The notes below the pieces were generated by a model. The model was given only the letters and a program-made list of their open reading frames with translations. It was not told the origin of the DNA and did no database searches. Below, piece by piece: positions 9,001-47,083 of a stretch of DNA of 50,311 nt; position 1 is the stretch's first letter; the number at the start of each line of letters is the position of its first letter. Position numbers and translations under genes: made by a program. The stretch lies in the NCBI GenBank assembly GCA_037442805.1, contig JBBIPO010000006.1:1-50311 (forward strand). Reading direction: 5' to 3'. The DNA comes from Deltaproteobacteria bacterium (GTDB lineage: Bacteria > Myxococcota_A > UBA9042 > DTJE01).

Positions 9001-10345
9001 CGGATTCCGCCGTCTTCCCGGGGGCCCCCGAGTGGTGCAACGCGAAGGACGACGACTGCGACGCCCTGACGGACGAGGAGGGGGCCGCCGACTGCTCGTG
9101 GTATTACAAGGACGCGGACGGCGACCAGTACGGGGTTGCCACGGACAAGAAGTGTTTGTGCTCGGGTTCCGGGGTGTATGTCGCGACCCAGACCGGGGAC
9201 TGCGACGACAACGACCCGCAGGCGAGGCCGGGCGGGACCGAGGTCTGCGGCAACAGCCAGGACGACGACTGCGACGGCTGGACCGACGAGGCCGGATGCC
9301 AGGGCTGCACGACCTTCTACCTGGACGAAGACGGGGACGCCTACGGCCAGACGGGCCAGACGCAGTGCCTGTCCGGGCCGTCCGGGAACTACCGCGCGAC
9401 CCGCGGTGGGGACTGTCGCGACAACGACGAGGCCGTCAACCCCGGGGCGACCGAGGTCTGCCAGAACAACCAGGACGACAACTGCGACGGGCAGACCGAC
9501 GAGGCCGGGTGCCAGGGATGCGTCACCTATTACAAGGACCAGGACGGGGACACTTACGGGGTGGCGGGGGACACGAGGTGCCTGTCCGGGCCGACCTCGC
9601 CGTACACGGCGACCCGCGCCGGAGACTGCGACGATTCGAACGCGAGCGTCAAGCCGGGGGCGGCCGAGGTGTGCAACCTCGTGGACGACAACTGCGACGG
9701 GACGACGGACGAGGCCGGCGCGAGCGGCTGCACGAACTACGATCGCGACAACGACGGCGATGCCTACGGGATTGCGTCGGACAGCCGGTGTCTGTGCCGG
9801 TCGAGCACCCCGTACACGGCGACCCAGACCGGGGATTGCGACGACAACGATGCGGCCGTCAAGCCCGGGGCGACCGAGGCCTGCAACGGCCGTGACGACA
9901 ACTGCGACGGGCAGACCGACCCCGTGGACTCGCAGGGGTGCGTCCCCTGGTACTATGACTACGACGAGGACGGCTTCGGGACGTCCACCTCGCGCTGCCA
10001 GTGCGGGGCCCTGGGCCTGTACCGGACCCTCGCGACCGGGGACTGCAACGACACGAACGCCCAGGTCTATCCGGGTGCAACCGAGGCGTGCAACGGCGCG
10101 GACGACGACTGTGACGGCAACGTGGACGAGCCGGGGGCCCAGGGGTGCACGACCCACTACCACGACGGGGACAGCGACGGGTACGGGGTCGCGGGCGACT
10201 CGCGCTGCCAGTGCGGGCCGTCCTACCAGTGGGTCGCCGTGTCCGGGGATTGCAACGACAACAACGCCGCGATCCGCCCCGGGGCCGTGGAGCACTGCGA
10301 CGGGGTGGACGAGGACTGCGACGGCCAGACCGACGACGGGGACCC
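3..10345 (+). repeat. In-frame tandem coding repeat, period about 210-213 bp, roughly 50 copies, with a superimposed ~4.6-kb (22-unit) segmental duplication
   Basis: I counted 50 occurrences of the C-x-x-x-D-[DEN]-[DN]-C-[DNTE]-x motif in the translated frame, spaced about 70 aa apart. The last unit (EHCDGVDEDCDGQTDDGD) ends near 10345. Confidence 0.9.
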
Positions 10346-35658: not shown

Positions 35659-36768
35659 ATGAACCGAAACATCTCGAACCGACTCCTGGACCGCGCCGGA
35701 CAGAAGGATTCCCTGTGGACCGACCGTGATGAGCAACGGTTCCGGGAGGCCCTCGCCCTCGCCCAGGAAGCGCGGCAGCGCGTCGAGGCCCACGACCCAC
35801 AGACCCACGAGCACGGCGTGCGCGTTGCCCAGTGGGCGTTGCTCCTGGCCATGCGACTCCCCGGTTTCGACCACAGGCGGCTGCGGCGGCTGGAGATCTC
35901 GGCGTTGCTGCACGACTACGGGAAACTGATGGTCCCCGCGTCCATCCTCAATAAGCCGGGGAAACTCGACGAACACGAGTGGGAGTTGATCCGGCGTCAC
36001 CCGGAGATCGGGGCGATGAGCGCGCCGGTAAGCCCGGAGTTCGTGAATCGGGACGTGATCCTGTGGCACCACAAGCGATTCGATGGGGGCGGGTATCCCG
36101 CCGGGGACCTGTCCGGGCTCGGCATCCCCATCGAGGCCCGCATCACGTCGGTGGCGGACGTATTCGATGCCGTCGCGTCGAACCGGGCGTACCACCAGGA
36201 TGGCAAGGGCCTTCCGCCCGGCCGGGCCCTCGACGTGCTGAACCGGGTCGCGGGGACGGCCCTGGACCCGACCCTGGTCGCGTTGTTCGGGACGATCGTC
36301 GGGGAGGCCGCAGACGCGGTCGGCGGCGACGTGGGGTTCCAGACCCTCGCCGTGGCGTCCGTGATCCAGGTCGAGGCCGCCCGCGTTCGCAAGTACCTGC
36401 GACACGAGTTCGGAGTCTTCGACCCGAACGACCCGCTGGGCGGCGTGGATCCCCCTCCGGGGCTCGAGGAGCGGCTCGTCAGAACCGTGGTCCGGGCCAG
36501 TCTGGACGAGACGTCGGCGCGCAACCTGGTCCGGCACGTGCTCCGGTTGCCCTTGTCCGAGACCTTCCGCCGCGAGGACCTGGCGATGGACGACGCGGCA
36601 CTGCACGCGGCCGTCCAGAGGGCCGGGAACCACGAGGAAGCCGTCCTCTACCTTCGACCCGACCGGTCCCGCCTGTCGTACCACAGCATCGTGGTGTTCC
36701 AGGGGGAGTTGTGGCTCTGCGTCGGAGAGCAGGTCGCGGACCGTACCCGGGTCCTGCTGATCCGGTGA
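35659..36768 (+). CDS. HD-GYP domain protein (probable cyclic-di-GMP phosphodiesterase or related signalling protein)
   Basis: ..HEHGVRVAQWA..ALLHDYGKLMVP..IRRHPEIG..WHHKRFDGGGYP..ADVFDAVAS.R.Y.. are the HD and HHExxDGxGYP-type signatures (K-R replaces E-x here). Confidence 0.85.
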   Translation: MNRNISNRLLDRAGQKDSLWTDRDEQRFREALALAQEARQRVEAHDPQTHEHGVRVAQWALLLAMRLPGFDHRRLRRLEISALLHDYGKLMVPASILNKPGKLDEHEWELIRRHPEIGAMSAPVSPEFVNRDVILWHHKRFDGGGYPAGDLSGLGIPIEARITSVADVFDAVASNRAYHQDGKGLPPGRALDVLNRVAGTALDPTLVALFGTIVGEAADAVGGDVGFQTLAVASVIQVEAARVRKYLRHEFGVFDPNDPLGGVDPPPGLEERLVRTVVRASLDETSARNLVRHVLRLPLSETFRREDLAMDDAALHAAVQRAGNHEEAVLYLRPDRSRLSYHSIVVFQGELWLCVGEQVADRTRVLLIR

Positions 36769-36857: not shown

Positions 36858-39254
36858 ATGGGTTGGTCGGTCCGCGTCGTGATTTTCCTCGGGGGGCTGC
36901 TGGGGTGTCCGTCCGTTCCCAAGGGGCCAGGAGATGTCGTCTTCCCCGAGGGCGGCGTGGTGGACGCCCCGGGGGACGCCGCGGCGGATGCGGGGGACTG
37001 GGACGGGCGCGACGCACGGGATGTGCGGGACCGCGAAAGTGGCTCCGCCTCCGGCGAGGGGACCTGGGACCCTGGCTGCGTTCCGCAGTGCTGGAGCCGG
37101 GTGTGCGGGCCGGACGGGTGTGGAGGGGTCTGCGGGGTCTGCCCGGAGGGGACCGCGTGTTCGTACGACCGCTCGATGTGCGTGTCGCAATCCGTGCAGA
37201 AGGCGCTCGGGGCCCCATGTGGCCCGACGGAGGACTGTCTGCCGACGGCGGCGTATCCGGGGGGGTCCTACCCCAACCCCCGCTGGCCGGGATGTCTGCA
37301 CGACCAGTGCCTGCAAGGCCCGTGCGTGGCGGGCTTCTGCTCGCGCCCGTGCCGCATGATGCAGGACGTGGTCGTCAACGGGACCGACCTCATGGCCCCG
37401 GACGGGATCGAGGACCCGGACACGCCGGTGACCGACTGCGCGGGGGGGCAGACCGACCTCTTCGGGAGGGGATTCGCGTGCGTCCTGGTGGATCCAGGCG
37501 CGACCGAGGGCCTGTGTTACCCGGTCGCGTCCTTTGAGCCCTGCGAGGGCCAGGGGTGTCCGGAGGGAGAGACGTGCGGCTTCCTTCCGGTGCTCGGCAA
37601 CCTCGAGCGCCGGTGCCTGGCCGCGCCCGCCGGCGCCGCGGGGATCGCGGAGCCGTGCGGATACGACGGGCTGACGGGCCGGGCGACGAGGTGCGAGGCA
37701 TGGGCGTGCACGGCGGACGGGTGCACCCGGGCGTGCACGTCGGACGGGGATTGCGCGACTCCGGGGGCGTCGTGCGAAGCAAGGAGCGGCCTGTGTTCCG
37801 GCGCGGGTGGGCGGTGCGAAGACGCTGGGGATTGCAGCGCGTGGGTCTGCCGGCCGGACGTGGTCCTGGGGGACCTGGGGTGGCCGTCCGGGACCGGAGC
37901 CGGAGGCGCCACGATGATCGTGCAGGCGTGCGGCCCGCGCGAGTGCCTCCGGGACGCGGACTGCGGGGACCCGGGGTTCTACTGCCTGCACGAGGCCCGG
38001 GCGGATGGCCCTGGCATGGCGAGCGTCGTGGGCCGGTGCGCGCGACGGGAGAGCGGGGGACAGCCGCTCGGGGCCCCCTGCGACGACGACCCGGGCGATG
38101 GGAGGCCGGACCTCGTTTGCCAGGACCGTGCGTACTGCCTCGACGGACGATGCGGGGCGATGTGCGCCGGGGAGGACGACTGCAAGGGGGTCGAGGGTGG
38201 TCGTGGGTCGCCCGCGGCGTGTGGGCTGCGCGAGTTCGACGCGGGCGAGGGGTTCCCCTGGGACGTCCCGGTCCCTGTTCCCGTCTGCGTGTGGGGCGGC
38301 GAGTCGTGGGCGCCGTGCGAGGTGCGGGAAGACTGCGAGGCCGGAGTCTGCACGCCGTGGATTCCGGCCGCGACGGGGGCGGTCGAGTTGCGGTGCCTGG
38401 AGCCGCCGGCTGGCAGCGTCGCTCCGGGAAGTGCCTGCGGCGTGGCGGCGTGGGGCCAGGTCTGCGACACGCGCGTCTGTCTGGGCGACACGGGCGTCTT
38501 CGCCGGTCTGTGTTCCACGGTGTGTCGCGACGCGGGGGATTGTCCGGCGGCGTTGCCGGTGGAGGGGGCGAAGTTCCTGTGCGAGGCCGTGCGATTTTCG
38601 CAGGCAGGGACCGTGTACCTCGCAGACGACGCCTACGTATCGTGGTGCATCCCCGTGTCCGAGGGTAGCACGCTTCAGCCGTGCGAGCCGGTCGGGTCGT
38701 GCGCAGTGGCCGGCGAGACGTGCCGCGCCGTGGTGCGAAGCGGGGTTCCGGGGGGCGAGGACCGGGTCGAGTACCGATGCGTGCGGGTCGAGGCGGGAGG
38801 CCAGACCGGCGCGGCATGCGACCCGGACAGGGGAGGGCAGGGGTGTCGTTCCGGGGTCTGCGCGCCCACCGCAGTGCGGGGCGTGGGGTTCTGCACGACG
38901 CCGTGCGACGCGGACGCAACGTGTCAGGGGCTCGCGGGCGGGGCGGCCCGGTGCGTGGCGCGCGTGGTCCTGCCGCGGGACCCGCCGCTTCAGCCGGTGA
39001 GCGTACGCGAGTGCCGCGTGGTGGATGACTGCGTGACCTGCCACGACGACCGGGACTGCCCGGACCCCTCGCTGAGATGCGCGAACATGGCGACGTTGCC
39101 GTACCAGGACGATTTCCGGTGCGCGCCCACCTGCGAGGCGGACGGGGATTGCGCGGCCTGGGGAGGTGGGGTCACGTGCATGGAAGTGGACGCCCCGCTC
39201 GAGACCTCTAGGACCGGCAAGGTCCGGGTGTGCGCGCCGCTCGCATGTCCATAG
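36858..39254 (+). CDS. Large, extremely cysteine-rich lipoprotein of unknown function (798 aa)
   Basis: ATG at 36858 has GGAGG upstream. Signal and lipobox are MGWSVRVVIFLGGLLGC. Recurrent modules of the type G-x-[PA]-C-x(n)-C-x(n)-G-x-C-x(2,3)-C-x(2)-D-x-D-C occur (e.g. GAPCDDDPGDGRPDLVCQDRAYCLDGRCGAMCAGEDDC, and GAACDPDRGGQGCRSGVCAP..GFCTTPCDADATC). Confidence 0.7.
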   Translation: MGWSVRVVIFLGGLLGCPSVPKGPGDVVFPEGGVVDAPGDAAADAGDWDGRDARDVRDRESGSASGEGTWDPGCVPQCWSRVCGPDGCGGVCGVCPEGTACSYDRSMCVSQSVQKALGAPCGPTEDCLPTAAYPGGSYPNPRWPGCLHDQCLQGPCVAGFCSRPCRMMQDVVVNGTDLMAPDGIEDPDTPVTDCAGGQTDLFGRGFACVLVDPGATEGLCYPVASFEPCEGQGCPEGETCGFLPVLGNLERRCLAAPAGAAGIAEPCGYDGLTGRATRCEAWACTADGCTRACTSDGDCATPGASCEARSGLCSGAGGRCEDAGDCSAWVCRPDVVLGDLGWPSGTGAGGATMIVQACGPRECLRDADCGDPGFYCLHEARADGPGMASVVGRCARRESGGQPLGAPCDDDPGDGRPDLVCQDRAYCLDGRCGAMCAGEDDCKGVEGGRGSPAACGLREFDAGEGFPWDVPVPVPVCVWGGESWAPCEVREDCEAGVCTPWIPAATGAVELRCLEPPAGSVAPGSACGVAAWGQVCDTRVCLGDTGVFAGLCSTVCRDAGDCPAALPVEGAKFLCEAVRFSQAGTVYLADDAYVSWCIPVSEGSTLQPCEPVGSCAVAGETCRAVVRSGVPGGEDRVEYRCVRVEAGGQTGAACDPDRGGQGCRSGVCAPTAVRGVGFCTTPCDADATCQGLAGGAARCVARVVLPRDPPLQPVSVRECRVVDDCVTCHDDRDCPDPSLRCANMATLPYQDDFRCAPTCEADGDCAAWGGGVTCMEVDAPLETSRTGKVRVCAPLACP

Positions 39255-39284: not shown

Positions 39285-41369
39285 TCAGAAGACGTCCGGA
39301 CCGACCTCGATCAGATAATCCGGCGTGAACGATAGCGGATAGAGGAACCCGTCGGGACGATGCGTCTGCGCGGTCCCAGCGACCCCGGTCGCGTCGAGAG
39401 AAGGGCCGTTTTCGCGCCACCACGCCTCGACCGAGGCGTTCTTTTCCGCGACGTCGCGCAACAGCGCGACGTTCGCGGCGGGGTCATCGCCGACCTCCGC
39501 GGCGCGCTCGGGCCCGACCAGGTTCCGGTAGATGCGGCGCCTCGCCTCTCGCACCCAGTCGGGGTCCAACACGGACACGTTCAGTTCGCCCTCGTACAGG
39601 AGCCCACGATTGTTCTTGTTGCAGGAACCCACGGACAGGTACTCGTCGTCCACGATCAGCATCTTCGAGTGCACGTCCATGTCCACGAAGTAATACGACG
39701 CGGACTCGTCCCCGTCTTCCGGCGGCTCGAGACGAGGGACCGCGTCGAAACTCTTCAATTGAAACAGAAGATACCGGTCGCCGGCGGCCTTGCGCAGGGC
39801 GCGATCCATCTCGATGGTCCACTTCTTGGCCCCGTCCGCGAGCGACACGGGCTTGGTCACCACGATCAGGGTGACCCAGGGCCGTTCCACGAGGGTCGCG
39901 AGGAGGGTCGGGAGCAGGATGGGCATCCGCCAGTACTGGTCCTCGACATAGATGAACGAGGTCGCGTTGCGCAGGGCCTTGGTCCACGTCTCGAGGATGG
40001 ACTGCTCCTCGATGGGGGGAGGGAGTGTCGCGACCACCTGGACGAGCGGGTGGCCGACCACGGGCGAGAAGTCCCAGGACCCCACCGGGACCGGCCGGGG
40101 GAACGGGGTCGCGTGCTCGGCGTACATCGCGCCCTCGGCCAGCGCCCGGTCCCAGCGGACCCAGAGGACATCGTCCACGTCGGAGGCCGCCGGCCCCTCG
40201 ATGCGGATGCCGTAGTCCTTGCGCGGCCCCAGGTCCGGCCACTGCTTCTTGTCCCGCACGCGCAATCGCTCGGCAACGGGCGTGTCGAACTTCATCCTTC
40301 TGGAATCGAAGACCAAGTGGTCCGAGGTGTCCCAGTCCGTGCTCTTGACGTTCATGCCGCTGACGTAGGCCACGCGCCCGTCCACGACAAACGCCTTCTG
40401 GTGATACGACGCCGCGTCCAGGGCGGTCAGGACCTCGGCACCGCGCGCGACCCCGGGCCACGCCTCGCCCGCGAACTCCGGGTTGCGCGCGACCCTCTCC
40501 GCGAACGACCACGCCGGGACCGGGCCGTCGTACGTGCCGGTCAGAGGGACCTCGGTCGCGTTCCCCTGGAGGACCACCTCGAAGCCGTCGTGATCCGCGA
40601 CGCCTCTTGCGCGGATGTCCGGGTCCGTGTTGAGGTAGGCCATCCCGGTCGCGGTCTCGGGCGCGAACCGGTTCACCAGGAGGCGCTTGAACGCGGGCGA
40701 GGGGTCGAGGATGGCGAGGGCCGTGTTGGCGCGCCGCGCCTCCGCGCTCATGGTCTCGTGCCCCGGGGGACGCAGCAACTCGAAGTCCGACTGCCACCAC
40801 CAGGTGCTCATGCGGATGTCCGTGGTCGCGCGCAACAGGTCCGCGTGCACCGCGCTCCAAAACGCCTCGCCATCCATCAGGAGGTCCACCTGGTTCCCGT
40901 CGCGGAACGGGCGGCCCGACGAGGCGAACCACGCGTGGTCCAGTCCAACGAAGCATGAAAGGCGACAGGGGTCGGTCGCCGCGTGGGAGGTGGCGGTCCA
41001 TGCGGGGCCTGACACCACGCGCGGGGCCAGGTCCGCGTCGGGCCCCACCTCGACCGTGGCCGGCAGAAACCCGTCCGCCCGGGCCGTGACGAGGAGCGGT
41101 GCTTCCAGAATCGCGACTGGGTCACGGTCGCGCGCGGTTTCAAGGACCTGGTCCCCGGTCGCGAGCGTGACCTCCCAGGAGGGGAGGCGGCGGCCCCAGG
41201 CGTCGAGCACCACGACGCGGACTTGGGCCGGCCCCTGGCAGAGGCGTCCCGCGTCCCCACCGGCCACGTCGGTGCTGGCGTCCGGGGGGGGGAAAGGCCC
41301 CGAGGCGGAGCCGCAGGCCCAGCCGCCGAGCACGAGCAGCCAGGCGACCGCATGGGGATTCAAGGTCAC
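39285..41369 (-). CDS. Exported phospholipase D-superfamily protein with two HKD motifs
   Basis: GTG at 41369 overlaps the upstream stop as GTGA. N-terminus VTLNPHAVAWLLVLGGWAC is signal/lipobox-like. HKD motifs are ..SYHQKAFVVDGRVAYVSGMN.. and ..DVHSKMLIVDDEYLSVGSCNKNNRG... The 918-aa track ORF has a spurious N-terminal extension. Confidence 0.85.
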   Translation of the reverse strand: MTLNPHAVAWLLVLGGWACGSASGPFPPPDASTDVAGGDAGRLCQGPAQVRVVVLDAWGRRLPSWEVTLATGDQVLETARDRDPVAILEAPLLVTARADGFLPATVEVGPDADLAPRVVSGPAWTATSHAATDPCRLSCFVGLDHAWFASSGRPFRDGNQVDLLMDGEAFWSAVHADLLRATTDIRMSTWWWQSDFELLRPPGHETMSAEARRANTALAILDPSPAFKRLLVNRFAPETATGMAYLNTDPDIRARGVADHDGFEVVLQGNATEVPLTGTYDGPVPAWSFAERVARNPEFAGEAWPGVARGAEVLTALDAASYHQKAFVVDGRVAYVSGMNVKSTDWDTSDHLVFDSRRMKFDTPVAERLRVRDKKQWPDLGPRKDYGIRIEGPAASDVDDVLWVRWDRALAEGAMYAEHATPFPRPVPVGSWDFSPVVGHPLVQVVATLPPPIEEQSILETWTKALRNATSFIYVEDQYWRMPILLPTLLATLVERPWVTLIVVTKPVSLADGAKKWTIEMDRALRKAAGDRYLLFQLKSFDAVPRLEPPEDGDESASYYFVDMDVHSKMLIVDDEYLSVGSCNKNNRGLLYEGELNVSVLDPDWVREARRRIYRNLVGPERAAEVGDDPAANVALLRDVAEKNASVEAWWRENGPSLDATGVAGTAQTHRPDGFLYPLSFTPDYLIEVGPDVF

Positions 41370-43255
41370 GGCGCGACCTCCACCAGGTCGCCGGTGACGA
41401 ACAGGACCCCGCCATCCTCGCGGTCCGTCCCGACGTGGAGGCCTGTCACGGCGAAGCCCCCAAAGGAGGGGAGGGGGATGGAGCCGAGGAGCCCCGACAC
41501 GGTGGGACCGAGTGCCTGGAGCAGACCGGAAGTCGTTTCCTCGAGATAGGTCTCGACCACCGCCAACGACCCATCGGGGTCCTGAACGTCCAGGGCCAGA
41601 TCGAGGGCATGGAAATCCACCCTGACCGCGGACCCGGCGGTCCAGGCGCTGGAAGGGACCACCTCCCCGTCGAGACGAACGGTCGTGGTCATGACGAGCA
41701 ACGCTGGCTGGTCCAGCGCCCCATCCGGCCGGATGACCATCGTGAGGTCGCCGACCCCCAGTCGCACCCCTCCCGAGACGGGCAGGTCCAGCGACGCGAC
41801 CGGCGGGAAGGTCGCGCGTAGGTCCACCGCGATGCGGGTCTCCGGGTCCAGCGGGGGCCCGGGCAGGAGGGAAAGGACGCCGCCCAGAAAGCCCGCGACC
41901 AGGTCCACCTCGACCTTGTGGGCGTCCAGGAACGCCTGGTCCACGGTGAAGTCGAGCAGACCCGACCTCCACGCCTCGTGGAACACGACATTCAGGAGGT
42001 CGTCCTTGAGCGACAGCCGGACCCCCGGGACCTCCGGCCACTCCTCCTGGCCCGGCGTCGCGAGGATGCCGGGGGAATCGTGTGGGGGAACCGGATCCAG
42101 GCCGGCCATCCCGATGTCGAAACCCACGCGGACGCCATCCGGGGTGACCTCGGCCTCCGACGCCGAGAAGCGCAAATCGAAGGCGCGGTCGAACACGACG
42201 ATGGGAATGGGGTCCGCGAGCCGCTCGAACACCGCCCCGACGGCGCGGGTCACCTGGTCCTCCAGGAAGCGGGCCAAGAATCCTTCGAGAGTCTGAAGGA
42301 TCGTGTCGCGATAGTCCGGGAACACCGCGAGCAAGTCGTCCGCGAGCCCGTCAATCGTCACGATCGGGTCGCCGAGGTCGAGGGTCGTCTCGGCGAGCCC
42401 GACGGTCACGCCGCCCTCCGGACGGGCGCCGAGGGTGACCATCCCGTCGGCCGACAGGCGGTTGCTCGCGATCCGGACAGGCCAGGTCGTCGCCGGACGG
42501 TCTAGAAGGGACACGACCACCCTCACGTCCAAGTCCCGGACCACAAGGCCGAGCACGATCAGGCCCCAGGCCGGCTTGAGCGTCACCTCGGTCCCGGCGG
42601 ACAGGGTCACGTCCTGGGCCATCACGGTCACGAGCGACGACTGGTACAGGGGGTTCATCCCGCGCGCGATGGCCCCGAGGTCCGACGCATCCACCAGGCG
42701 CGCCGCGGCCTGGCCGACCACGGCCAGGGCCTCGCGTCCCAGGTAGAGGTCCGCGGCGTGGGCCACGACCTCGGAGGGCGGGCGGTACTCCCCGCACAGC
42801 ACGGCGCGGTGCTCGACGGATCGCGCCCCGGTCGCGGTCCGCGCGACGACCTCGATTACGTTGAGTCCGGGGAGCAGGGATGCGGCGACCTCCTGCTCGC
42901 CCTCGCGTGCCTCCCCGGCCTGGCCCGCAATGACGACCTCGGCGAGCGGTCCGCCGGGCGATTCGATGCGGACCCGAACGGAAAACGATGCCTGGCAGTC
43001 GGTGGCGTACGTGCCGGTCGCGGGGGAAAGGATCTCGATGCGCGGGGGCGGACCCGGGAGGTTCACGTCGGGGGATTCCTCTGCGCCGGACTCGTCCAGA
43101 GCGTCGGAGTCCTTTGTCGGGGCCTCAACCGGTACTTCCAGGACGTCCGTGGCCCGGCCCTCGGCGGGCACGGTCCCGGCGCAACCCGCGGCAACCGCCG
43201 CTCCGCTCAGGCAGGCGAGGAACGACACCACGGGCCGTGGAAGTGTCCGGTTCAC
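41366..43255 (-). CDS. Lipoprotein of unknown function (629 aa): an Ig-like N-terminal domain followed by a large uncharacterised domain
   Basis: GTG at 43255. Signal and lipobox are MNRTLPRPVVSFLACLSGAAVAAGC. ..PPPRIEILSPATGTYATDCQASFSVRVRIES..VIEVVARTATGA.. is Ig-like. The remainder has real-protein composition but I recognise no family. Confidence 0.65.
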   Translation of the reverse strand: MNRTLPRPVVSFLACLSGAAVAAGCAGTVPAEGRATDVLEVPVEAPTKDSDALDESGAEESPDVNLPGPPPRIEILSPATGTYATDCQASFSVRVRIESPGGPLAEVVIAGQAGEAREGEQEVAASLLPGLNVIEVVARTATGARSVEHRAVLCGEYRPPSEVVAHAADLYLGREALAVVGQAAARLVDASDLGAIARGMNPLYQSSLVTVMAQDVTLSAGTEVTLKPAWGLIVLGLVVRDLDVRVVVSLLDRPATTWPVRIASNRLSADGMVTLGARPEGGVTVGLAETTLDLGDPIVTIDGLADDLLAVFPDYRDTILQTLEGFLARFLEDQVTRAVGAVFERLADPIPIVVFDRAFDLRFSASEAEVTPDGVRVGFDIGMAGLDPVPPHDSPGILATPGQEEWPEVPGVRLSLKDDLLNVVFHEAWRSGLLDFTVDQAFLDAHKVEVDLVAGFLGGVLSLLPGPPLDPETRIAVDLRATFPPVASLDLPVSGGVRLGVGDLTMVIRPDGALDQPALLVMTTTVRLDGEVVPSSAWTAGSAVRVDFHALDLALDVQDPDGSLAVVETYLEETTSGLLQALGPTVSGLLGSIPLPSFGGFAVTGLHVGTDREDGGVLFVTGDLVEVAP

Positions 43256-43315
43256 GCTGCCTGCTCGCCCGCGCGCCTGCGGGACCGAGGAGCCCCGCGT
43301 CCGCCAAGACGCGGC

Positions 43316-45160
43316 TCACTCCTGGGGCGTGATCTTCAGGACCGCTCGCTCGATCCGCCCCGTGTCGGACGAGGCATTGTCGCAGACCTCGAGCACCCAG
43401 TCGCCCTTGGCGGACGTGCCCTTGACCTTCTTCACCGAGTACGTCTTCTCGATGTCGTCGGCGCTCCCGCCAATCCAGTAGTTCTTCAGGGTCCGGTAGG
43501 ACCCGTCCGGCAAGTAGAGGCGCACGCGCAGGTCCCCGATGTAGGTGTGGCGGATCGTCAGTTCGAGCGACGCCTTGTACACGGTCAGGTCGTGCGCAAC
43601 CGCAATGGTCGCGCGGGCGCAGGCGCTCGGCGAGTTGTCCGGGATGTCCAGGGGCAGACCGGTCGCCGTGTACGTCCCCGGCTCGGTCGCCGGCGAATCC
43701 TGTGACGCGATGGACTGCGGCAGGATGGTGGACGCAAGATACTTGTAATCAACGTATTCGTTTTCGTAAACGCGATAGTTGTTCGTATTGGACAGGGGCT
43801 GCCACATGAAGTCCGGGTGCGCGTAGATGCCCAGGTCCGCGTCCTGCCACTCCCCGTCGCCGATGATCTCGGCCTTGGGGTCGTCCATCGGCGCGGTCAG
43901 CCACAGGACGTAGGTCAGGGTCCTCAAGTCCACCTGGTCGTCGTACATCTCGCGGATCTTGTACGCGGTCGCGTAGGTCTCGTCGTCAATGTCGTCGCGG
44001 TAGTTCTGCACGGTCAGCGTCTCGTGCGGAAGCCCGTCGTGCATCCAGTGGATGGTCGCGGTCACGAGGACCGGGTACACCGACTTCTGGCCCAGGCTCT
44101 TCACCCGGCCCTCGCCGCTCGAGTAGTCCGTCCACTTGACGTCCACCTCCTGGGGCTTGGCGACCCCGTCCACCACCTGATAGAGCGGCTTCACGCTGAA
44201 CCGGTACGACTTCACCGGCTGGTTCCACACCTCCGCGCCCGTGCACTGGTCAATCACGAACGACTTGTCGCGGTTGCCGATCTGGTCCGCGAAGAAGATG
44301 TGGAAGGCCGCGGGGGTCACGTCCTGGAAGTCCACCCCTTTCTTCGCCTCCTCGTCCTTGTCCCAGTCGTTGCGCGACCCGTAGAACGACGAGGAGCACT
44401 CCATCCACGCCTCGGTCAGCAGGCCCTTCACGTCGCCGGGGGTCAGCGTCACGCCGTCCACCGTCGCGTCGCGCCGGGGTTCCGGCTCCATGACCGCGGC
44501 CGCGGCCCAGGCGTTGCAGTGCCCGTACCAGTTCTCGACCCCGAACTGCCCGAGCCCGTGTTCCAGGATCTCGAACTCCGTGGCCGTGTCCACCGTGAAC
44601 TTCTTGTCCGCCAGGGATTCCTGGGTGTCCTCGATCTTCTTCTTGTTGTCCAGATATTCCTTGCCTTCAGGGGTTTCCCGCCAGTCCCACGAGGGGTCGC
44701 TCTCGTGCTCCGCGAGCATCCGGTTGATGCGATAGACGAGTTCCTGCTGGCGCTTCATCAGGGTCGCGACCTCGGCGTCCTTCTCTTGCACCGCGGCCAG
44801 ATACGCCTTGACCTTGTCGCGCTCGACCTTGCCGATGCGCCCGAGCAGTTTGTCGAGTTTCTCGGCGGGCGAGTACAGGGCCGAATCGTCCGCATCGAAG
44901 CGATCCGTCTTCTTCTTGTACTCGTCGCCCCACCACGACAGGCCCGTCACGGCCGGGTCGTGCAACCGGTAGGCGATCCCGTCCCGCTTGTAAGCCCACC
45001 AGGACCCGACCCACACGACCTTCGACACGGTCCCGCGCAGCGGGAGTTTCGAGAAGAGGACCTCCCCGTAGCGGGTGTTGGGGTTGGACCACGAAGTCGC
45101 GGGGACGACCAGCGACCACCCCGCGACGACCAGCAGCAAGCGCCATCCCTTGGTATTCAT
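43316..45160 (-). CDS. Secreted protein with a candidate papain/transglutaminase-like thiol centre (WYGHCNAWAAAAV) and a C-terminal proprotein-convertase P-domain
   Basis: ATG at 45160 has GGGGAGG upstream. Signal peptide is MNTKGWRLLLVVAGWSLVVPATSWS. The C-terminal ..IPDNSP..ATIAV..LELTIRHTYIGDLRVRLYLPDGSYRTL..GDWVLEVCDNASSDTGRIERAVLKI fits the P_proprotein pattern (H-x-x-x-GDL-x-[VI]-x-L-x-x-P-x-G, G-x-W-x-L-x-V-x-D...D-x-G). Confidence 0.75.
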   Translation of the reverse strand: MNTKGWRLLLVVAGWSLVVPATSWSNPNTRYGEVLFSKLPLRGTVSKVVWVGSWWAYKRDGIAYRLHDPAVTGLSWWGDEYKKKTDRFDADDSALYSPAEKLDKLLGRIGKVERDKVKAYLAAVQEKDAEVATLMKRQQELVYRINRMLAEHESDPSWDWRETPEGKEYLDNKKKIEDTQESLADKKFTVDTATEFEILEHGLGQFGVENWYGHCNAWAAAAVMEPEPRRDATVDGVTLTPGDVKGLLTEAWMECSSSFYGSRNDWDKDEEAKKGVDFQDVTPAAFHIFFADQIGNRDKSFVIDQCTGAEVWNQPVKSYRFSVKPLYQVVDGVAKPQEVDVKWTDYSSGEGRVKSLGQKSVYPVLVTATIHWMHDGLPHETLTVQNYRDDIDDETYATAYKIREMYDDQVDLRTLTYVLWLTAPMDDPKAEIIGDGEWQDADLGIYAHPDFMWQPLSNTNNYRVYENEYVDYKYLASTILPQSIASQDSPATEPGTYTATGLPLDIPDNSPSACARATIAVAHDLTVYKASLELTIRHTYIGDLRVRLYLPDGSYRTLKNYWIGGSADDIEKTYSVKKVKGTSAKGDWVLEVCDNASSDTGRIERAVLKITPQE

Positions 45161-45175
45161 GTCATCGCCTCCCCG

Positions 45176-45994
45176 TCACTGCGCCAGGTCCTGGCGGATC
45201 AGGACGCCCGCCCCCTGGCTCGTCCGGATGAAGAAGGGCCACAGGTCGCCCCTCGCCCAGAACACCACGTCCCCGTTGTCGAAGTCGTAGCGCTCGTAGG
45301 TCCGGGAGGCCCAACCGGGGTCGAAGACCGCGAGGATGTCCGCGAGGTCCGCGGGGACCTCGGGGGCCGCGGACCCGCTCCCCTGCACGAGGATGCGCGG
45401 GATCGAGTGGGGATAGATGCTCGACCCGGTGTTCAGCGAGGACTTGTGGTTGACCTCGACCGTGTATCCATCGGGATATTCGGCGTTGAAAATGGTTTCC
45501 TCGATGGGGTCGAGGAGGTCGTTCAGGGTGAAGACCAGGCGCGGCTCGTGCTCGTCCACCCGGTCGGGCGCGAACAGTTCCGCGTGTTCCGTGGGCGTGG
45601 CCTGCGTGACCTCGATCTCGGCCACCTCCCGCATGACACGGTCGAAGACGTTCTTCGTGACCCCGAGCACACGGTACCGGAACAGATACACCTCGCTCGC
45701 GACCTTGCGGTCCGGGGCGATCTCTGGGGCCGCCATGGCCATGTCCGAGCGGTGGTCGAATCGAAACGCCACGTAGAACGTGTCTCCGACCCGGTAGAAC
45801 CTTGGCGCCATCCCGGTCTGCTGGAACGCGCTCCCGCCGCCCGGGTCGCAGTCGGGACAGTCCCCCTTGCCCGTGACTTTCGGTTCCCCGCCCGTGGGCG
45901 GGGGCGTGGCCGGTCCCTGGGACGAGGCGCACGCCGCGCACAGGAGCGCGACGGCGGCGACCCCCGAAGCCGTCCTTGCGATGCGATTCCTCAT
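45176..45994 (-). CDS. Lipoprotein of unknown function (272 aa), first gene of the secreted four-gene operon
   Basis: ATG at 45994 is preceded by GGAGAGGAGG. Signal and lipobox are MRNRIARTASGVAAVALLCAAC. The stop lies 15 nt before the next gene's start. Confidence 0.65.
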   Translation of the reverse strand: MRNRIARTASGVAAVALLCAACASSQGPATPPPTGGEPKVTGKGDCPDCDPGGGSAFQQTGMAPRFYRVGDTFYVAFRFDHRSDMAMAAPEIAPDRKVASEVYLFRYRVLGVTKNVFDRVMREVAEIEVTQATPTEHAELFAPDRVDEHEPRLVFTLNDLLDPIEETIFNAEYPDGYTVEVNHKSSLNTGSSIYPHSIPRILVQGSGSAAPEVPADLADILAVFDPGWASRTYERYDFDNGDVVFWARGDLWPFFIRTSQGAGVLIRQDLAQ

Positions 45995-46219: not shown

Positions 46220-47083
46220 TCAGCGCGCCAGGAGGTCCGACAACCGCACGGCCTCCGCTTCCGCGGCCCGCTTCTTGAAGAACTCGAAGCGCGCCGCCAG
46301 AAGACGGGCGCGGGCGGCCTCGAACAGGGAGGGTCGGGACAGGGCCGCGTCCACCGCGGTCTCACCGTAAAGACGGGTCAGGTCCAGCAGCAAGAATGCG
46401 CTCGCCTCGTCGCTCGGGTCCGCGGGTAGCCCCGCCGCGGCCAGGTCCTCGGCCAGGTCGGGTGCCCGCAGGACCTGGATCGGGGGCCTCACGTCGTGAA
46501 AGTGGAAGGCATCGCCCTCCAGCACGACCTCCCCACGACCCAGGCGCACCGCGCGTGGCAGAAAAAGCCTCGGGACCTCCGCGCGCAGCGCGACCACGAG
46601 GCGCTCGGCCAGGCCGAGGTCCGCCGGTCGCGCGCGCAGGACCACGTGCGTGGTGCCCGCGACCTCCTCCGGTTTCCAGTCATATCCGCCCGGCGTATCC
46701 ACGGAGTCGGGCAGGGGAGGCGGACCCTCGCCGTCCACCCGCGCCTCGACCGTTGCCTCGCGAAACCCGACGTTTCGCGCCGCGGCCTCGAGCGTCCGCG
46801 TCAGCTCCTCCACCCTGGGCCCGATGGGGATGCGCTCCTCCACGCGAAACATCCTGAAGACTTCCGAATACTTGCGCACCGCGTTCCAGTGCCCCAGGTG
46901 ATTCGCCGCCACGGCCCGGACCTGCTCGCGGCGGATCAGGGCAGTCTGCTGAAGTTCGCGCCAGCGCGGGTCGAGGGAGCGGTCCGCCAGCGGGGGACCC
47001 TCGCCGCAGGCGATGGCGGTCGCAGCCATCAGAACCGGGATGGCGCCTCCGGGCAACCTGGTGCAAACGCGAGGATGGTTCAT
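46220..47083 (-). CDS. Lipoprotein of unknown function (287 aa)
   Basis: ATG at 47083 (MNHPRVCTRLPGGAIPVLMAATAIAC) gives a signal peptide and lipobox. The 529-aa track ORF extension is antisense to thiD and is spurious. Confidence 0.6.
   Translation of the reverse strand: MNHPRVCTRLPGGAIPVLMAATAIACGEGPPLADRSLDPRWRELQQTALIRREQVRAVAANHLGHWNAVRKYSEVFRMFRVEERIPIGPRVEELTRTLEAAARNVGFREATVEARVDGEGPPPLPDSVDTPGGYDWKPEEVAGTTHVVLRARPADLGLAERLVVALRAEVPRLFLPRAVRLGRGEVVLEGDAFHFHDVRPPIQVLRAPDLAEDLAAAGLPADPSDEASAFLLLDLTRLYGETAVDAALSRPSLFEAARARLLAARFEFFKKRAAEAEAVRLSDLLAR

What the first reader, a model, noticed from the sequence alone, without database searches (positions are those of the whole stretch)
39285..45994. 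Four-gene secreted operon: lipoprotein, thiol-enzyme-like protein with a P-domain, lipoprotein, and HKD phospholipase D
All four minus-strand genes encode exported proteins, three with lipobox-type signals. The junctions are tight: a 15-nt gap with an RBS, a 60-nt gap, and a GTGA overlap at 41366-41369. Gene 2 joins a central WYGHCNAWAAAAV motif to a C-terminal proprotein-convertase P-domain. The motif resembles the nucleophile region of papain/transglutaminase-like enzymes; from memory it resembles the GP42 transglutaminase-elicitor family, with low confidence. The P-domain is normally an obligate partner of subtilisin/kexin catalytic domains, so this is an unusual fusion. Gene 4 is a two-HKD PLD translationally coupled to a 629-aa lipoprotein with no recognisable family. 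Together they look like an envelope- or prey-directed lipid/protein-modifying machine whose components are not a described system.
Basis: partly seen in the sequence, partly recalled or inferred. Interest (0 to 1): 0.7.

Follow-up and report, generated by a model that had tools for sequence, protein, structure and literature searches.

The report
Two secreted-enzyme gene pairs, side by side
The four genes are real and all encode exported proteins, but they are two separate two-gene units rather than one machine: a thiol enzyme with its own dedicated partner protein, and a BPI-like lipid-binding protein coupled to a phospholipase D.

Summary
There are four minus-strand genes for exported proteins, with a 15-nt gap, a 60-nt gap and a GTGA overlap. 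The domain calls are also right: gene 2 is a GP42/TGase_elicitor domain plus a P-domain, and gene 4 is a two-HKD PLD.

The "single four-part machine" reading is not supported. Comparative data split the locus into two cassettes.

**Cassette A (g1+g2).**
- The g1 lipoprotein sits directly upstream of the GP42-like enzyme in all 26 Myxococcota loci that have upstream DNA.
- A remotely related lipoprotein holds the same position in all 21 testable Bdellovibrionota/Oligoflexia loci.
- In one protein (P0175) the two are fused into a single chain.
- g1 is therefore a dedicated partner of the enzyme, most likely a prodomain-like chaperone or inhibitor supplied in trans.
- The enzyme keeps the GP42 nucleophile Cys, but its adjacent His lies before the Cys (HCN) rather than after it (CH).

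**Cassette B (g3+g4).**
- The "familyless" 629-aa lipoprotein is predicted to be a β-sandwich plus a BPI/LBP/CETP-like double TULIP lipid tube (Foldseek E=8e-21 to human BPI).
- Its 4-nt overlap with the PLD gene is conserved in five loci.

In close relatives, g1-g2 abut the same flanking gene with no g3-g4 between them, and g3-g4 lie on another contig.

Both cassettes are new variants of known kinds. Interest is moderate.

The parts
45176..45994 (-). g1: 272-aa lipoprotein and dedicated partner of the GP42-like enzyme. It belongs to an undescribed family. It has a lipobox Cys22, a disordered linker to about residue 46, an invariant K-G-D-C-P-D-C-D-P motif (residues 43-51; window 45842-45868), and then an all-beta domain.
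   Evidence: No Pfam or NCBIfam match. There are 26 homologous clusters and the invariant columns are listed. The AF2 model has pLDDT 75 and no significant PDB fold match. g1 lies immediately upstream of g2 in 26/26 testable Myxococcota loci. It is a remote homologue of the upstream lipoprotein in Bdellovibrionota loci (hhalign E=7.7e-5). It is fused to the enzyme in P0175 (hhalign prob 96.4%, E=1.3e-9).
45161..45175 (-). g1-g2 intergenic spacer of 15 nt, containing the GGGGAGG ribosome-binding site.
   Evidence: Sequence read.
43316..45160 (-). g2: 614-aa secreted GP42/TGase_elicitor-family papain-fold thiol enzyme. It has a signal-peptidase-I signal and a C-terminal P-domain.
   Evidence: Pfam PF16683 E=8.8e-30 and PF01483 E=8e-15. 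PDB 3tw5 matches at E=5.9e-19 and at E=2.2e-31 with a profile. More than 100 clusters share the architecture.
44507..44530 (-). Active-site motif W-Y-G-H-C-N-A-W (residues 211-218). Cys215 is the putative nucleophile, His214 and Asn216 are invariant.
   Evidence: Cys215 aligns with residue 290 of GP42, which is Ser in the crystallised chain (I recall it as a C290S mutant). H214, C215 and N216 are invariant in 25 sequences. The GP42 'CH' motif is described in PMC10318531. The HCN versus CH split across the superfamily is shown.
44192..44230 (-). VWNQPVKSYRFSV (residues 311-323), the counterpart of the GP42 Pep-13 segment VWNQPVRGFKVYE. It contains the conserved Asn313.
   Evidence: Alignment to 3tw5. 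The Pep-13 sequence is taken from PMC9879208. V311, W312 and N313 are invariant.
43346..43573 (-). Proprotein-convertase-type P-domain (g2 residues 530-605).
   Evidence: Pfam PF01483. The profile matches the P-domains of Aeromonas ASP protease 3hjr (E=5e-6) and of furin.
43256..43315 (-). g2-g3 intergenic spacer of 60 nt, the boundary between the two cassettes. It holds a GC-rich hairpin that is no more stable than shuffled sequence.
   Evidence: Fold z-score -0.11. No promoter or terminator consensus was found. An EEP-family gene is inserted at this position in L001.
41366..43255 (-). g3: 629-aa lipoprotein. An N-terminal beta-sandwich (about residues 72-158; window 42782-43042) is followed by a BPI/LBP/CETP-like double TULIP lipid-binding tube (about residues 164-626; window 41378-42766).
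   Evidence: AF2 pLDDT 80.3, pTM 0.76, with two helix/long-sheet/helix units. Foldseek hits: human BPI 1ewf E=8e-21, prob 1.0, TM 0.61 over 508 columns; LBP 4m4d; CETP 2obd; OrfX/P47. LBP is the top profile hit by sequence, at a weak E=0.017. No Pfam match.
41366..41369 (-). GTGA overlap: the g4 start codon overlaps the g3 stop codon (translational coupling).
   Evidence: The same 4-nt overlap occurs in L001, L059/L060, L061/L062 and L068.
39285..41369 (-). g4: 694-aa two-HKD phospholipase D-family lipoprotein. HKD1 is at residues 323-330 (window 40380-40403) and HKD2 at residues 567-574 (window 39648-39671).
   Evidence: Pfam PLDc (two stretches) and PLDc_2. The best solved relatives are human PLD2 and PLD1, plant PLD alpha and a 1099-aa bacterial PLD, 7v53.

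Best explanation
The region is two independent two-gene cassettes for extracytoplasmic enzymes. They happen to be neighbours, and may be co-transcribed, in this Myxococcota lineage.

**Cassette A (g1-g2).** g2 is exported by Sec. It is a papain-fold thiol enzyme of the GP42/TGase_elicitor family, which could act as a transglutaminase, protease or amidase. Cys215 is the nucleophile. The neighbouring His has moved from the +1 position (as in GP42) to the -1 position. A C-terminal P-domain beta-sandwich serves as an accessory module. g1 is the enzyme's obligate partner. It is made first from the same message and tethered to a membrane by its lipid anchor and a flexible linker. I infer that g1 binds g2 as a prodomain supplied in trans, acting as a folding helper and/or inhibitor that holds the enzyme at the envelope until release.

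**Cassette B (g3-g4).** g3 is a lipoprotein whose BPI-like double TULIP tube takes up membrane lipid (phospholipid or LPS/lipid A). The translationally coupled PLD lipoprotein g4 hydrolyses or transphosphatidylates the head group.

**Shown:** gene structure, family and fold assignments, conserved pairing, independence of the pairs, and the natural g1-g2 fusion.

**Inferred:** physical g1-g2 binding, the inhibitor/chaperone role, lipid hand-over from g3 to g4, and whether the target is prey membranes or the cell's own outer membrane.
For: **Independence of the two pairs**
- g1+g2 are adjacent in 26/26 Myxococcota loci that have upstream DNA. Only L001 among those also has g3+g4.
- L073 and L074 (g1/g2 84-88% identical) go straight from g2 to the convergent homologue of the window's Cys-rich gene (63-65% identical), with no g3/g4 between.
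- The same assembly as L074 carries g3+g4 (78% identical) on another contig, between aconitase and sucA.
- L061/L062 and L069 carry g3+g4 alone.
- L001 has an extra EEP-family lipoprotein gene between g2 and g3, coupled to g3 by an ATGA overlap.

**g1 as a partner of g2**
- A lipoprotein gene sits directly upstream of the enzyme gene in 21/21 testable Bdellovibrionota/Oligoflexia loci.
- That lipoprotein is remotely homologous to g1 (hhalign E=7.7e-5, 146 columns, shared C-terminal motifs).
- A third, distant clade (L075) also has a g1-like gene upstream.
- P0175 fuses a g1-like domain (residues 24-212), a Pro-rich linker and the enzyme domain, in the same order as the genes.

**Enzyme identity:**

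**g3 fold:**

**g3/g4 coupling:** the 4-nt overlap is conserved in five loci, down to 44% g3 identity.

**Precedents in the literature**
[quoted passage not shown] AlphaFold database relatives are fused to beta-sandwiches and to an esterase (bioRxiv 10.1101/2025.09.09.675085).
- TULIP domains fused to lipid head-group enzymes are described in PMC12419801.
Against: - There is no experimental or expression data.
- In the window the 60-nt g2-g3 gap has no recognisable terminator or promoter. All four genes may therefore be one transcript here.
- The four-gene order recurs in L001 and L068. Shared contig lengths suggest it also recurs on two short Logan contigs. Some local selection for linkage cannot be excluded.
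- The homology between g1 and the Bdellovibrionota partner rests on hhalign probability of only 62%, plus conserved position.
- Only one fusion protein was found, and its genomic origin is unknown.
- g1 has no significant structural relative, so its role is inferred from context only.
- The g3 model rests on a shallow 20-sequence alignment.
- g3 homologues at about 40% identity occur without a PLD, so the coupling is clade-limited.
- g2 lacks the GP42 His at +1, and no structural model of g2 was made. Catalytic competence is unproven.
- Loci were gathered with motif patterns, which biases the taxon sampling.
Confidence: 0.65

Rival explanations
1. All four products form one envelope- or prey-directed machine that modifies lipids and proteins, encoded by a single operon.
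For: - The four genes are on the same strand, with junctions of 15 nt, 60 nt and -4 nt and no detectable internal promoter or terminator.
- All four products are exported.
- The same gene order occurs in L068, and in L001 with one extra gene.
Against: - The two pairs are unlinked in most genomes that carry either one.
- They are unlinked even in relatives with 78-88% identical proteins. L073 and L074 lack g3g4 at the same flank, and L059 carries g3g4 elsewhere in the same assembly.
- The g2-g3 junction tolerates insertion of another gene.
- No neighbour other than g1 is conserved around g2 across clades.
Confidence: 0.1
2. Cassette A is a toxin-immunity pair. g2 is a secreted antibacterial effector that cleaves or cross-links targets in the prey envelope. 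g1 is the periplasmic or outer-membrane lipoprotein that protects the producer.
For: - The pair is found in Myxococcota (including Bradymonadia), Bacteriovoracaceae, Halobacteriovorax and Oligoflexia, lineages rich in predators.
- From my own knowledge, lipoprotein immunity proteins are typical for periplasm-acting papain-fold amidase effectors.
- g1 diverges faster than g2 but in step with it: g1 is 27-52% identical where g2 is 40-52%.
Against: - A natural covalent fusion of the two domains, P0175, is expected for a prodomain or subunit but not for an immunity protein.
- g1 is encoded upstream of the enzyme in every clade.
- g2 has a plain Sec signal and no marker of a contact-dependent delivery system.
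- In L075 the partner has no lipid anchor.
Confidence: 0.2
3. Cassette B is housekeeping rather than a weapon. The TULIP lipoprotein and the PLD would maintain or remodel the cell's own outer-membrane lipids, analogous in logic to MlaA and PldA.
For: - Both products are lipoproteins, so they stay attached to the producer's membranes.
- In L059 the pair sits among TCA-cycle genes, and in L061 among ordinary metabolic genes.
- g3-like proteins also occur alone.
- TULIP domains are proposed to act on outer-membrane-bound lipids in other bacteria (PMC12419801).
Against: - The pair is patchily distributed. It is present or absent among close relatives and inserted at different loci, which fits an accessory function better than a core one.
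- In L001 it has acquired a further secreted hydrolase of the EEP family.
- The characterised bacterial BPI-like protein TipA is predation-associated.
Confidence: 0.3
4. g1 is the substrate of g2 rather than its regulator. The transglutaminase would cross-link the lipoprotein to other envelope components through its invariant Lys43 and/or Gln59.
For: - K43 and Q59 are invariant in the Myxococcota g1 family.
- From my own knowledge, GP42 is a Ca-dependent transglutaminase associated with the cell wall.
Against: - The K-x-D-C-P-D-C-D motif and its Lys are absent from the Bdellovibrionota and L075 partners, although the pairing is kept there.
- The regions conserved across clades are in the folded C-terminal half of g1, not in the linker.
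Confidence: 0.07

Closest known systems
GP42 Ca-dependent transglutaminase of Phytophthora sojae (Pfam TGase_elicitor PF16683; PDB 3TW5)
   Same: - g2 makes a significant family match.
- The nucleophile Cys is in the same W-x-G-x-C-x-[AG]-W helix cap.
- The VWNQP segment, which is the core of Pep-13, is identical.
- FV-x-D and HPDF-x-W are conserved.
- Both proteins are secreted.
   Different: - GP42 has the catalytic His directly after the Cys (the 'CH' motif; PMC10318531). g2 and its clade have Asn there and an invariant His before the Cys.
- g2 has an insertion of about 90 residues (roughly 95-190) before the catalytic core, and a C-terminal P-domain.
- g2 comes with a separately encoded partner, g1.
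- No activity has been tested for any bacterial member that I could find.
N-terminal prodomains of papain-like proteases and of microbial transglutaminase zymogens (comparison from my own knowledge)
   Same: - A module encoded N-terminal to, or upstream of, a papain-fold thiol enzyme.
- In P0175 it is joined to the enzyme by a Pro-rich linker, in the order expected for a prodomain.
   Different: - In the window it is a separate lipoprotein of about 270 aa with its own signal sequence.
- Its predicted all-beta fold has no significant match to any solved structure.
- Inhibition or chaperoning has not been tested.
BPI / LBP / CETP (eukaryotic double TULIP lipid-binding proteins)
   Same: The predicted fold of g3 residues about 164-626 matches full-length BPI, LBP and CETP. 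Foldseek gives E from 8e-21 to 3e-17, probability 1.0, about 500 aligned columns and TM up to 0.62.
   Different: - Only 12-15% sequence identity, and no Pfam LBP_BPI_CETP match.
- g3 is a bacterial lipoprotein with an extra N-terminal beta-sandwich.
- g3 is translationally coupled to a PLD.
TipA-TipB of Bdellovibrio bacteriovorus (bd2538/bd2539), together with the AlphaFold database double TULIPs fused to beta-sandwiches or an esterase, such as Planctomyces A0A142WTQ2 (bioRxiv 10.1101/2025.09.09.675085)
   Same: - A bacterial BPI-like double TULIP encoded in a two-gene unit.
- A beta-sandwich is associated with the TULIP: fused in g3, separate as TipB.
- There is a precedent for a lipid-acting enzyme attached to a double TULIP.
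   Different: - The partner here is a two-HKD PLD encoded as a separate lipoprotein, which that paper does not describe.
- Sequence relatedness of g3 to TipA could not be tested, because I had no TipA sequence and TipA did not appear among the PDB fold matches.
- The dimerisation hairpin of TipA was not assessed.
Eukaryote-type HKD phospholipases D (human PLD1/PLD2, plant PLD alpha) and a 1099-aa bacterial PLD (PDB 7v53)
   Same: g4 has two HKD motifs. Its segmental similarity covers both catalytic halves.
   Different: - The matches are weak (E from 7e-7 to 2.5e-3).
- g4 has a lipobox and an N-terminal extension of about 130 residues with no family match.
- g4 scores far below the cardiolipin-synthase thresholds (38 bits against 281).

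Membership tests
TGase_elicitor / GP42 family (PF16683) | Sequence match to the family model above the curated threshold. | tested here: met
   104.1 bits against a cut-off of 25. 3tw5 matches at E=5.9e-19 and at E=2.2e-31 with a profile. The single-sequence Pfam match covers only profile positions 113-238 of 361. The profile search adds weak N- and C-terminal segments.
TGase_elicitor / GP42 family (PF16683) | Nucleophile Cys at the position of GP42 Cys290. | tested here: met
   Cys215 aligns with the Ser of the crystallised chain, which I recall as a C290S mutant. Cys215 is invariant in 25 homologues and conserved in both superfamily subtypes.
TGase_elicitor / GP42 family (PF16683) | A 'CH' motif: the catalytic His immediately after the Cys (PMC10318531). 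| tested here: not met
   Position +1 is Asn216 (invariant), and His214 at -1 is invariant. Among 144 superfamily sequences, 83 are H-C-x type, 48 are C-H type and 6 are H-C-H.
TGase_elicitor / GP42 family (PF16683) | Conserved Asn on the strand carrying the Pep-13 segment (VWNQP). | tested here: met
   V311, W312 and N313 are invariant. The segment is identical to GP42 over VWNQPV.
TGase_elicitor / GP42 family (PF16683) | Ca-dependent transglutaminase activity. | not testable with these tools
   Needs an enzyme assay.
Proprotein convertase P-domain (PF01483) | Sequence match above the threshold. | tested here: met
   55.2 bits against a cut-off of 21, residues 530-605. The profile matches the P-domains of ASP protease and furin.
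Proprotein convertase P-domain (PF01483) | Attached to a subtilisin/kexin (S8) catalytic domain. | tested here: not met
   There is no S8 domain in g2. The PF16683+PF01483 architecture is shared by more than 100 clusters.
BPI/LBP/CETP-type double TULIP | Two tandem helix/twisted-sheet/helix barrels matching the full-length BPI fold. | tested here: met
   AF2 secondary structure. Foldseek gives 1ewf at E=8e-21, TM 0.61 (normalised to the target) over 508 columns, plus LBP and CETP. This is a predicted structure, not a solved one.
BPI/LBP/CETP-type double TULIP | Sequence membership in the Pfam LBP_BPI_CETP families. | tested here: not met
   No Pfam hit at E<=0.1. The only sequence signal is a weak profile hit to LBP, E=0.017.
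BPI/LBP/CETP-type double TULIP | Hydrophobic lumen that binds lipid. | not testable with these tools
Needs lipid-binding assays.
TipA/TipB system of Bdellovibrio | Homology of g3 to TipA, and a TipB-like beta-sandwich that opens the N-terminal TULIP. | not tested
   No TipA or TipB sequence or structure was available in the tools. g3 has a fused N-terminal beta-sandwich, but its topology and docking could not be examined.
HKD phospholipase D superfamily | Two H-x-K-x4-D motifs in one chain. | tested here: met
   HQKAFVVD at 323-330 and HSKMLIVD at 567-574. Pfam PLDc with two stretches, plus PLDc_2.
HKD phospholipase D superfamily | Cardiolipin synthase (ClsA/ClsB) equivalog. | tested here: not met
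   37.6 bits against a cut-off of 281, and 33.5 bits against 290.
Single four-gene operon/system | The four genes are syntenic across genomes that carry any of them. | tested here: not met
   All four occur together only in the window, L001 (with an inserted gene) and L068. The pairs are separate in all other loci.

The most novel reading that the evidence does not exclude
The g1 family is a previously unrecognised prodomain or regulatory subunit, encoded in trans, that accompanies a large bacterial branch of GP42-like thiol enzymes. That branch has a relocated catalytic His (H-C-N). It spans Myxococcota and Bdellovibrionota, where the pair serves predation or envelope cross-linking. Separately, the BPI-like lipoprotein plus PLD is a bacterial "permeability-increasing" module that pulls lipid out of a target membrane and destroys it. 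That would be a bacterial counterpart of the way animal BPI attacks Gram-negative envelopes.
Probability: 0.3. Interest if true: 0.7.

Novelty: new variant of a known kind. Interest (0 to 1): 0.5.

Why it matters
**What this adds**
- It turns a vague "four-gene secreted operon" into two testable units.
- Bacterial GP42-like enzymes number about 2,000 representative clusters, and none was characterised in the literature I could search.
- These enzymes nearly always travel with a specific partner protein, and the two are sometimes fused. That gives a direct handle on how they are controlled.
- The H-C-N versus C-H dichotomy gives a clean mutational test of an unusual papain-fold active site.

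**Cassette B**
- It adds a second kind of operon partner, a phospholipase D, to the newly described bacterial BPI-like double TULIPs.
- This suggests that lipid extraction and head-group cleavage are coupled outside the cytoplasm.

**If the targets are prey membranes**
- Both cassettes would be candidate predation factors in largely uncultivated Myxococcota.
- Cultivable Bacteriovorax and Halobacteriovorax relatives are available for genetics on cassette A.

Tried and rejected
1. **Terminator between g2 and g3.** The GC-rich hairpin folds no better than shuffled sequence (z=-0.11). The consensus scan found no promoter or terminator there. This says nothing either way about transcription.
2. 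**A third conserved neighbour of g1-g2.** ORF clustering across 29 loci gave only subclade-specific neighbours: a TlyA-like methyltransferase, Dicty_CTDC Cys-rich proteins, a PilZ protein and one unknown. None is general.
3. **The Myxococcota-specific CPDC motif of g1 co-occurs with the P-domain of g2.** Rejected. In L075 the enzyme has a P-domain but the partner lacks both the motif and the lipobox.
4. **Structural relatives of g1.** Foldseek gave nothing significant. The best hit was DUF1849 at E=6.5e-3 with TM 0.22, followed by weak ependymin, LolA and MucB-like open barrels. A profile search of PDB sequences gave nothing.
5. **The single-sequence hit of g3 to a 'lipase' chain, 6k34_B (E=4e-4).** It was not reproduced by the family profile, so I treat it as compositional.
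6. **The EEP gene of L001 as a regular member of cassette B.** It was found only in L001.
7. **Aligning the g2-flank junctions of L073 and L074 with the window to find insertion boundaries.** Uninformative.
8. **The Reiss et al. 2011 GP42 structure paper.** It is not held. The active-site description comes from PMC10318531 instead.
9. **Names and accessions for the window's proteins.** The sources give none. A look-up of the window's own contig found nothing on record.
10. **Planctomycetota hits from the motif scan.** These have a different architecture, with EF-hand-like repeats before the catalytic domain and no upstream partner. I did not pursue them.

Full report

Yes. On the minus strand of this 70% GC window there are four consecutive ORFs:
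- g1, 45176-45994, 272 aa
- g2, 43316-45160, 614 aa
- g3, 41366-43255, 629 aa
- g4, 39285-41369, 694 aa

There is a 15-nt spacer with GGGGAGG, a 60-nt spacer, and a GTGA start/stop overlap at 41366-41369. Third-position GC is 0.88-0.93 in these frames. The many other ORFs that the ORF listing reports over the same DNA are the usual shadow ORFs of high-GC sequence.

g1, g3 and g4 each start with a basic and hydrophobic segment ending in a Cys preceded by Ala or Gly. That Cys is invariant in 24 g1 homologues. g2 has a signal-peptidase-I type signal.

- TGase_elicitor (E=8.8e-30) and P_proprotein (E=8e-15) in g2
- two PLDc motifs in g4
- nothing for g1 and g3

PDB 3tw5 matches at E=5.9e-19, and at 2.2e-31 with a family profile.

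**2. One operon or two cassettes?**

I collected loci encoding relatives of g2 from one genome per species (58 loci). I then asked by tblastn which of the four genes each locus carries.
- Every Myxococcota locus that has DNA upstream of g2 carries g1 directly upstream on the same strand (26 of 26). L012, L024 and L027 start inside or at g2 and cannot be scored.
- Only L001, the closest relative (87% identical g2), also has g3 and g4.

Relatives of g3 give the mirror picture.
- The g3 family is small, with 20 clusters.
- L059/L060 (78% identical), L061/L062 (44%) and L069 (45%) have g3 followed by the PLD, with no g1 or g2 nearby.
- More distant g3 relatives (about 40% and 31%) stand alone.
- One short metagenomic contig, L068, has all four genes in order.

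The decisive comparison is with L073 and L074.
- Their g1 and g2 are 84-88% identical to the window's.
- There, g2 is followed directly by the convergent homologue (63-65% identical) of the Cys-rich gene that follows g4 in the window.
- The g3-g4 pair is exactly what is missing.
- L074 belongs to assembly GCA_900175155.1. In that assembly g3-g4 sit on another contig, between aconitase and 2-oxoglutarate dehydrogenase genes.

In L001 the g2-g3 junction also holds an additional lipoprotein gene of the endonuclease/exonuclease/phosphatase family (Pfam E=2.4e-15). It is itself coupled to g3 by an ATGA overlap, and I found it nowhere else.

The evolutionary units are therefore g1+g2 and g3+g4. Their adjacency is a feature of a narrow lineage. 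Whether they are co-transcribed in the window cannot be decided. The hairpin in the 60-nt gap is no more stable than shuffled sequence, and no consensus signals were found.

**3. Cassette A: a GP42-like thiol enzyme and its partner**

*The enzyme.*
- More than 100 protein clusters share g2's architecture (PF16683 plus PF01483). Nearly all come from Myxococcota MAGs, and some carry two P-domains.
- A scan of 1.84 billion representatives with the catalytic region alone finds 2,036 relatives at E<=1e-3. Other members carry PPC modules or other additions in place of the P-domain. The P-domain is thus one of several interchangeable C-terminal beta-sandwich modules, not a singular fusion.
- The nucleophile position is conserved. 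Cys215 aligns with residue 290 of the crystallised GP42, which is Ser in that chain; I recall it as a C290S mutant.
- GP42 is unusual among papain-fold enzymes in having its catalytic His directly after the Cys, the "CH" motif (PMC10318531). In g2 and all 24 aligned relatives that position is Asn216, and an invariant His214 precedes the Cys.
- Across 144 superfamily sequences the two states are nearly exclusive: 83 are H-C-x, 48 are C-H and 6 are H-C-H.
- All other conserved columns are shared by both subtypes: W211, G213, W218, E227, P228, K245, D280, D304, V311, W312, N313 and P315.
- The VWNQPV stretch is identical to the start of the GP42 Pep-13 peptide.
- I conclude that g2 belongs to the family but to a distinct active-site subtype. 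Whether it is a transglutaminase, protease or amidase is untested.

*The partner.*
- g1 has no family or significant fold match. Its model is an all-beta domain after a disordered tether.
- Three further observations tie it to the enzyme.
  1. In the Bdellovibrionota/Oligoflexia loci from the same scan, a 290-320-aa lipoprotein gene lies immediately upstream of the enzyme gene in 21 of 21 scorable loci. Its family profile aligns with the g1 profile over 146 columns. The hhalign E-value is 7.7e-5 and the probability 62%. They share the motifs SS-x-x-FP-x-x-[IL]-P and W-x-x-G-x-x-WP-x-x-[IV].
  2. In a distant clade (L075; enzyme 25% identical) the upstream gene again encodes a g1-like protein. 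This one has an ordinary signal peptide and no lipobox.
  3. One representative, P0175, is a single 561-aa chain. A g1-like domain (residues 24-212; hhalign probability 96.4%, E=1.3e-9) is joined by a Pro-rich linker to the enzyme domain, in the same order as the genes.
- A conserved gene pair that is fused in another lineage is classic evidence for physical association.
- The N-terminal position and the linker suggest a prodomain-like role as chaperone and/or inhibitor. In the window that role would be supplied in trans and anchored to a membrane. This last step is inference.
- A toxin-immunity reading is possible but fits the fusion poorly.
- A substrate reading fits poorly because the invariant Lys/CPDC motif is confined to the Myxococcota branch.

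**4. Cassette B: a BPI-like lipoprotein and a PLD**

- The AF2 model of g3 (pLDDT 80, pTM 0.76) shows a beta-sandwich at residues 72-158, followed by two helix/long-twisted-sheet/helix units.
- Foldseek matches the whole of human BPI (E=8e-21, probability 1.0, 508 columns, TM 0.61). It also matches LBP and CETP, and more weakly the clostridial OrfX/P47 TULIP proteins.
- LBP is also the top sequence hit of the family profile, at a weak E=0.017.
- So the "familyless" lipoprotein is a bacterial double TULIP.
- A 2026 preprint describes TipA of Bdellovibrio as a BPI-like double TULIP that binds lipids and membranes and is opened by its operon partner TipB, a small beta-sandwich. It also notes AlphaFold database relatives fused to beta-sandwiches or to an esterase.
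- TULIP domains fused to lipid head-group enzymes have also been proposed to present outer-membrane lipids to those enzymes.
- g3 has the sandwich fused, and its partner is a two-HKD PLD. I found no description of that combination.
- The 4-nt overlap between g3 and g4 is kept in the window, L001, L059/L060, L061/L062 and L068, while g3 diverges to 44% identity and g4 to 60%.
- g4's best solved relatives are eukaryote-type PLDs and a large bacterial PLD. It is far below the cardiolipin-synthase thresholds.
- The simplest mechanism is that the TULIP tube takes lipid from a membrane and the coupled PLD acts on its head group.
- Both proteins are lipid-anchored, and the cassette comes and goes among close relatives. 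I cannot tell whether the target is prey membranes or the cell's own outer membrane. I rate the accessory, attack-type reading somewhat higher.

**5. Comparison with what is known, and novelty**

- The enzyme families (GP42-like, PLD) and the fold (double TULIP) are known.
- What is not described, as far as the held literature shows:
  - the g1 partner family and its near-universal pairing with, and occasional fusion to, bacterial GP42-like enzymes
  - the H-C-N active-site subtype
  - the pairing of a double TULIP with a PLD
- I therefore class the finding as new variants of known kinds, not as a new four-component system.

**6. Limits**

- All function is inferred.
- The loci were gathered with two peptide patterns, so the taxon picture (Myxococcota, Bdellovibrionota, a few Planctomycetota) is biased.
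- The g1-to-Bdellovibrionota-partner homology is weak on sequence alone.
- Only one fusion protein was seen.
- The structures are predictions from shallow alignments, and their coordinates could not be inspected.
- No model of g2 was made.

Noticed in passing
window 36858-39254 (+): A 798-aa Cys-rich secreted protein with no Pfam match, convergent with g4. Its homologue keeps the same position next to g2 in L073 and L074, and next to g4 in L001. Cys-rich proteins with Dicty_CTDC or MopE-type repeats also neighbour g1-g2 or g3 in unrelated loci (L009, L061, L065).
   Followed up: partly
window 46220-47083 (-): A 287-aa predicted lipoprotein (…ATAIAC) with no Pfam match lies about 225 nt upstream of g1. 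Among the loci examined it is conserved only in L001 (69% identical). It may be a fifth exported product of the local cluster.
   Followed up: partly
L001 6462-7460: An extra EEP-family (Exo_endo_phos) lipoprotein gene lies between g2 and g3 and is coupled to g3 by an ATGA overlap. It is absent from the window and from all other loci. This suggests cassette B can recruit further secreted hydrolases.
   Followed up: yes
superfamily sequences P0167-P0306; window 44507-44530: The TGase_elicitor superfamily splits into two nearly exclusive active-site types, G-H-C-N-[AG] and G-[IL]-C-H-[AG] (the GP42 type), with a few G-H-C-H intermediates. This looks like migration of the catalytic His around the nucleophile.
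   Followed up: partly
L052 8273-10699: A Planctomycetota relative of g2 has an N-terminal extension of about 550 residues with several EF-hand-like D-x-[DN]-G-D-G repeats before the WWGHCNAW domain, and no upstream partner gene. This may be relevant to the Ca dependence reported for GP42.
   Followed up: no
alignment A1 (for example P0061, P0067, P0071, P0080, P0091): A subgroup of Myxococcota g2 homologues (about 720-740 aa) carries a second, tandem P-domain.
   Followed up: no
window 39-11111 (+): A very large ORF (3,690 aa, GC3 0.93) occupies the first 11 kb of the window. I did not examine it.
   Followed up: no
window 35659-36768 (+): An HD_5/HD-domain gene lies next to the Cys-rich gene. 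The same HD gene neighbours the Cys-rich homologue in L073 and L074, which confirms that the flank is syntenic and that g3-g4 is the indel.
   Followed up: partly
L061 1408-8001: A 2,197-aa Dicty_CTDC-repeat protein ends exactly where the g3 homologue starts (shared coordinate 8001). The two may be coupled, so cassette B could have a different upstream partner in that lineage.
   Followed up: no
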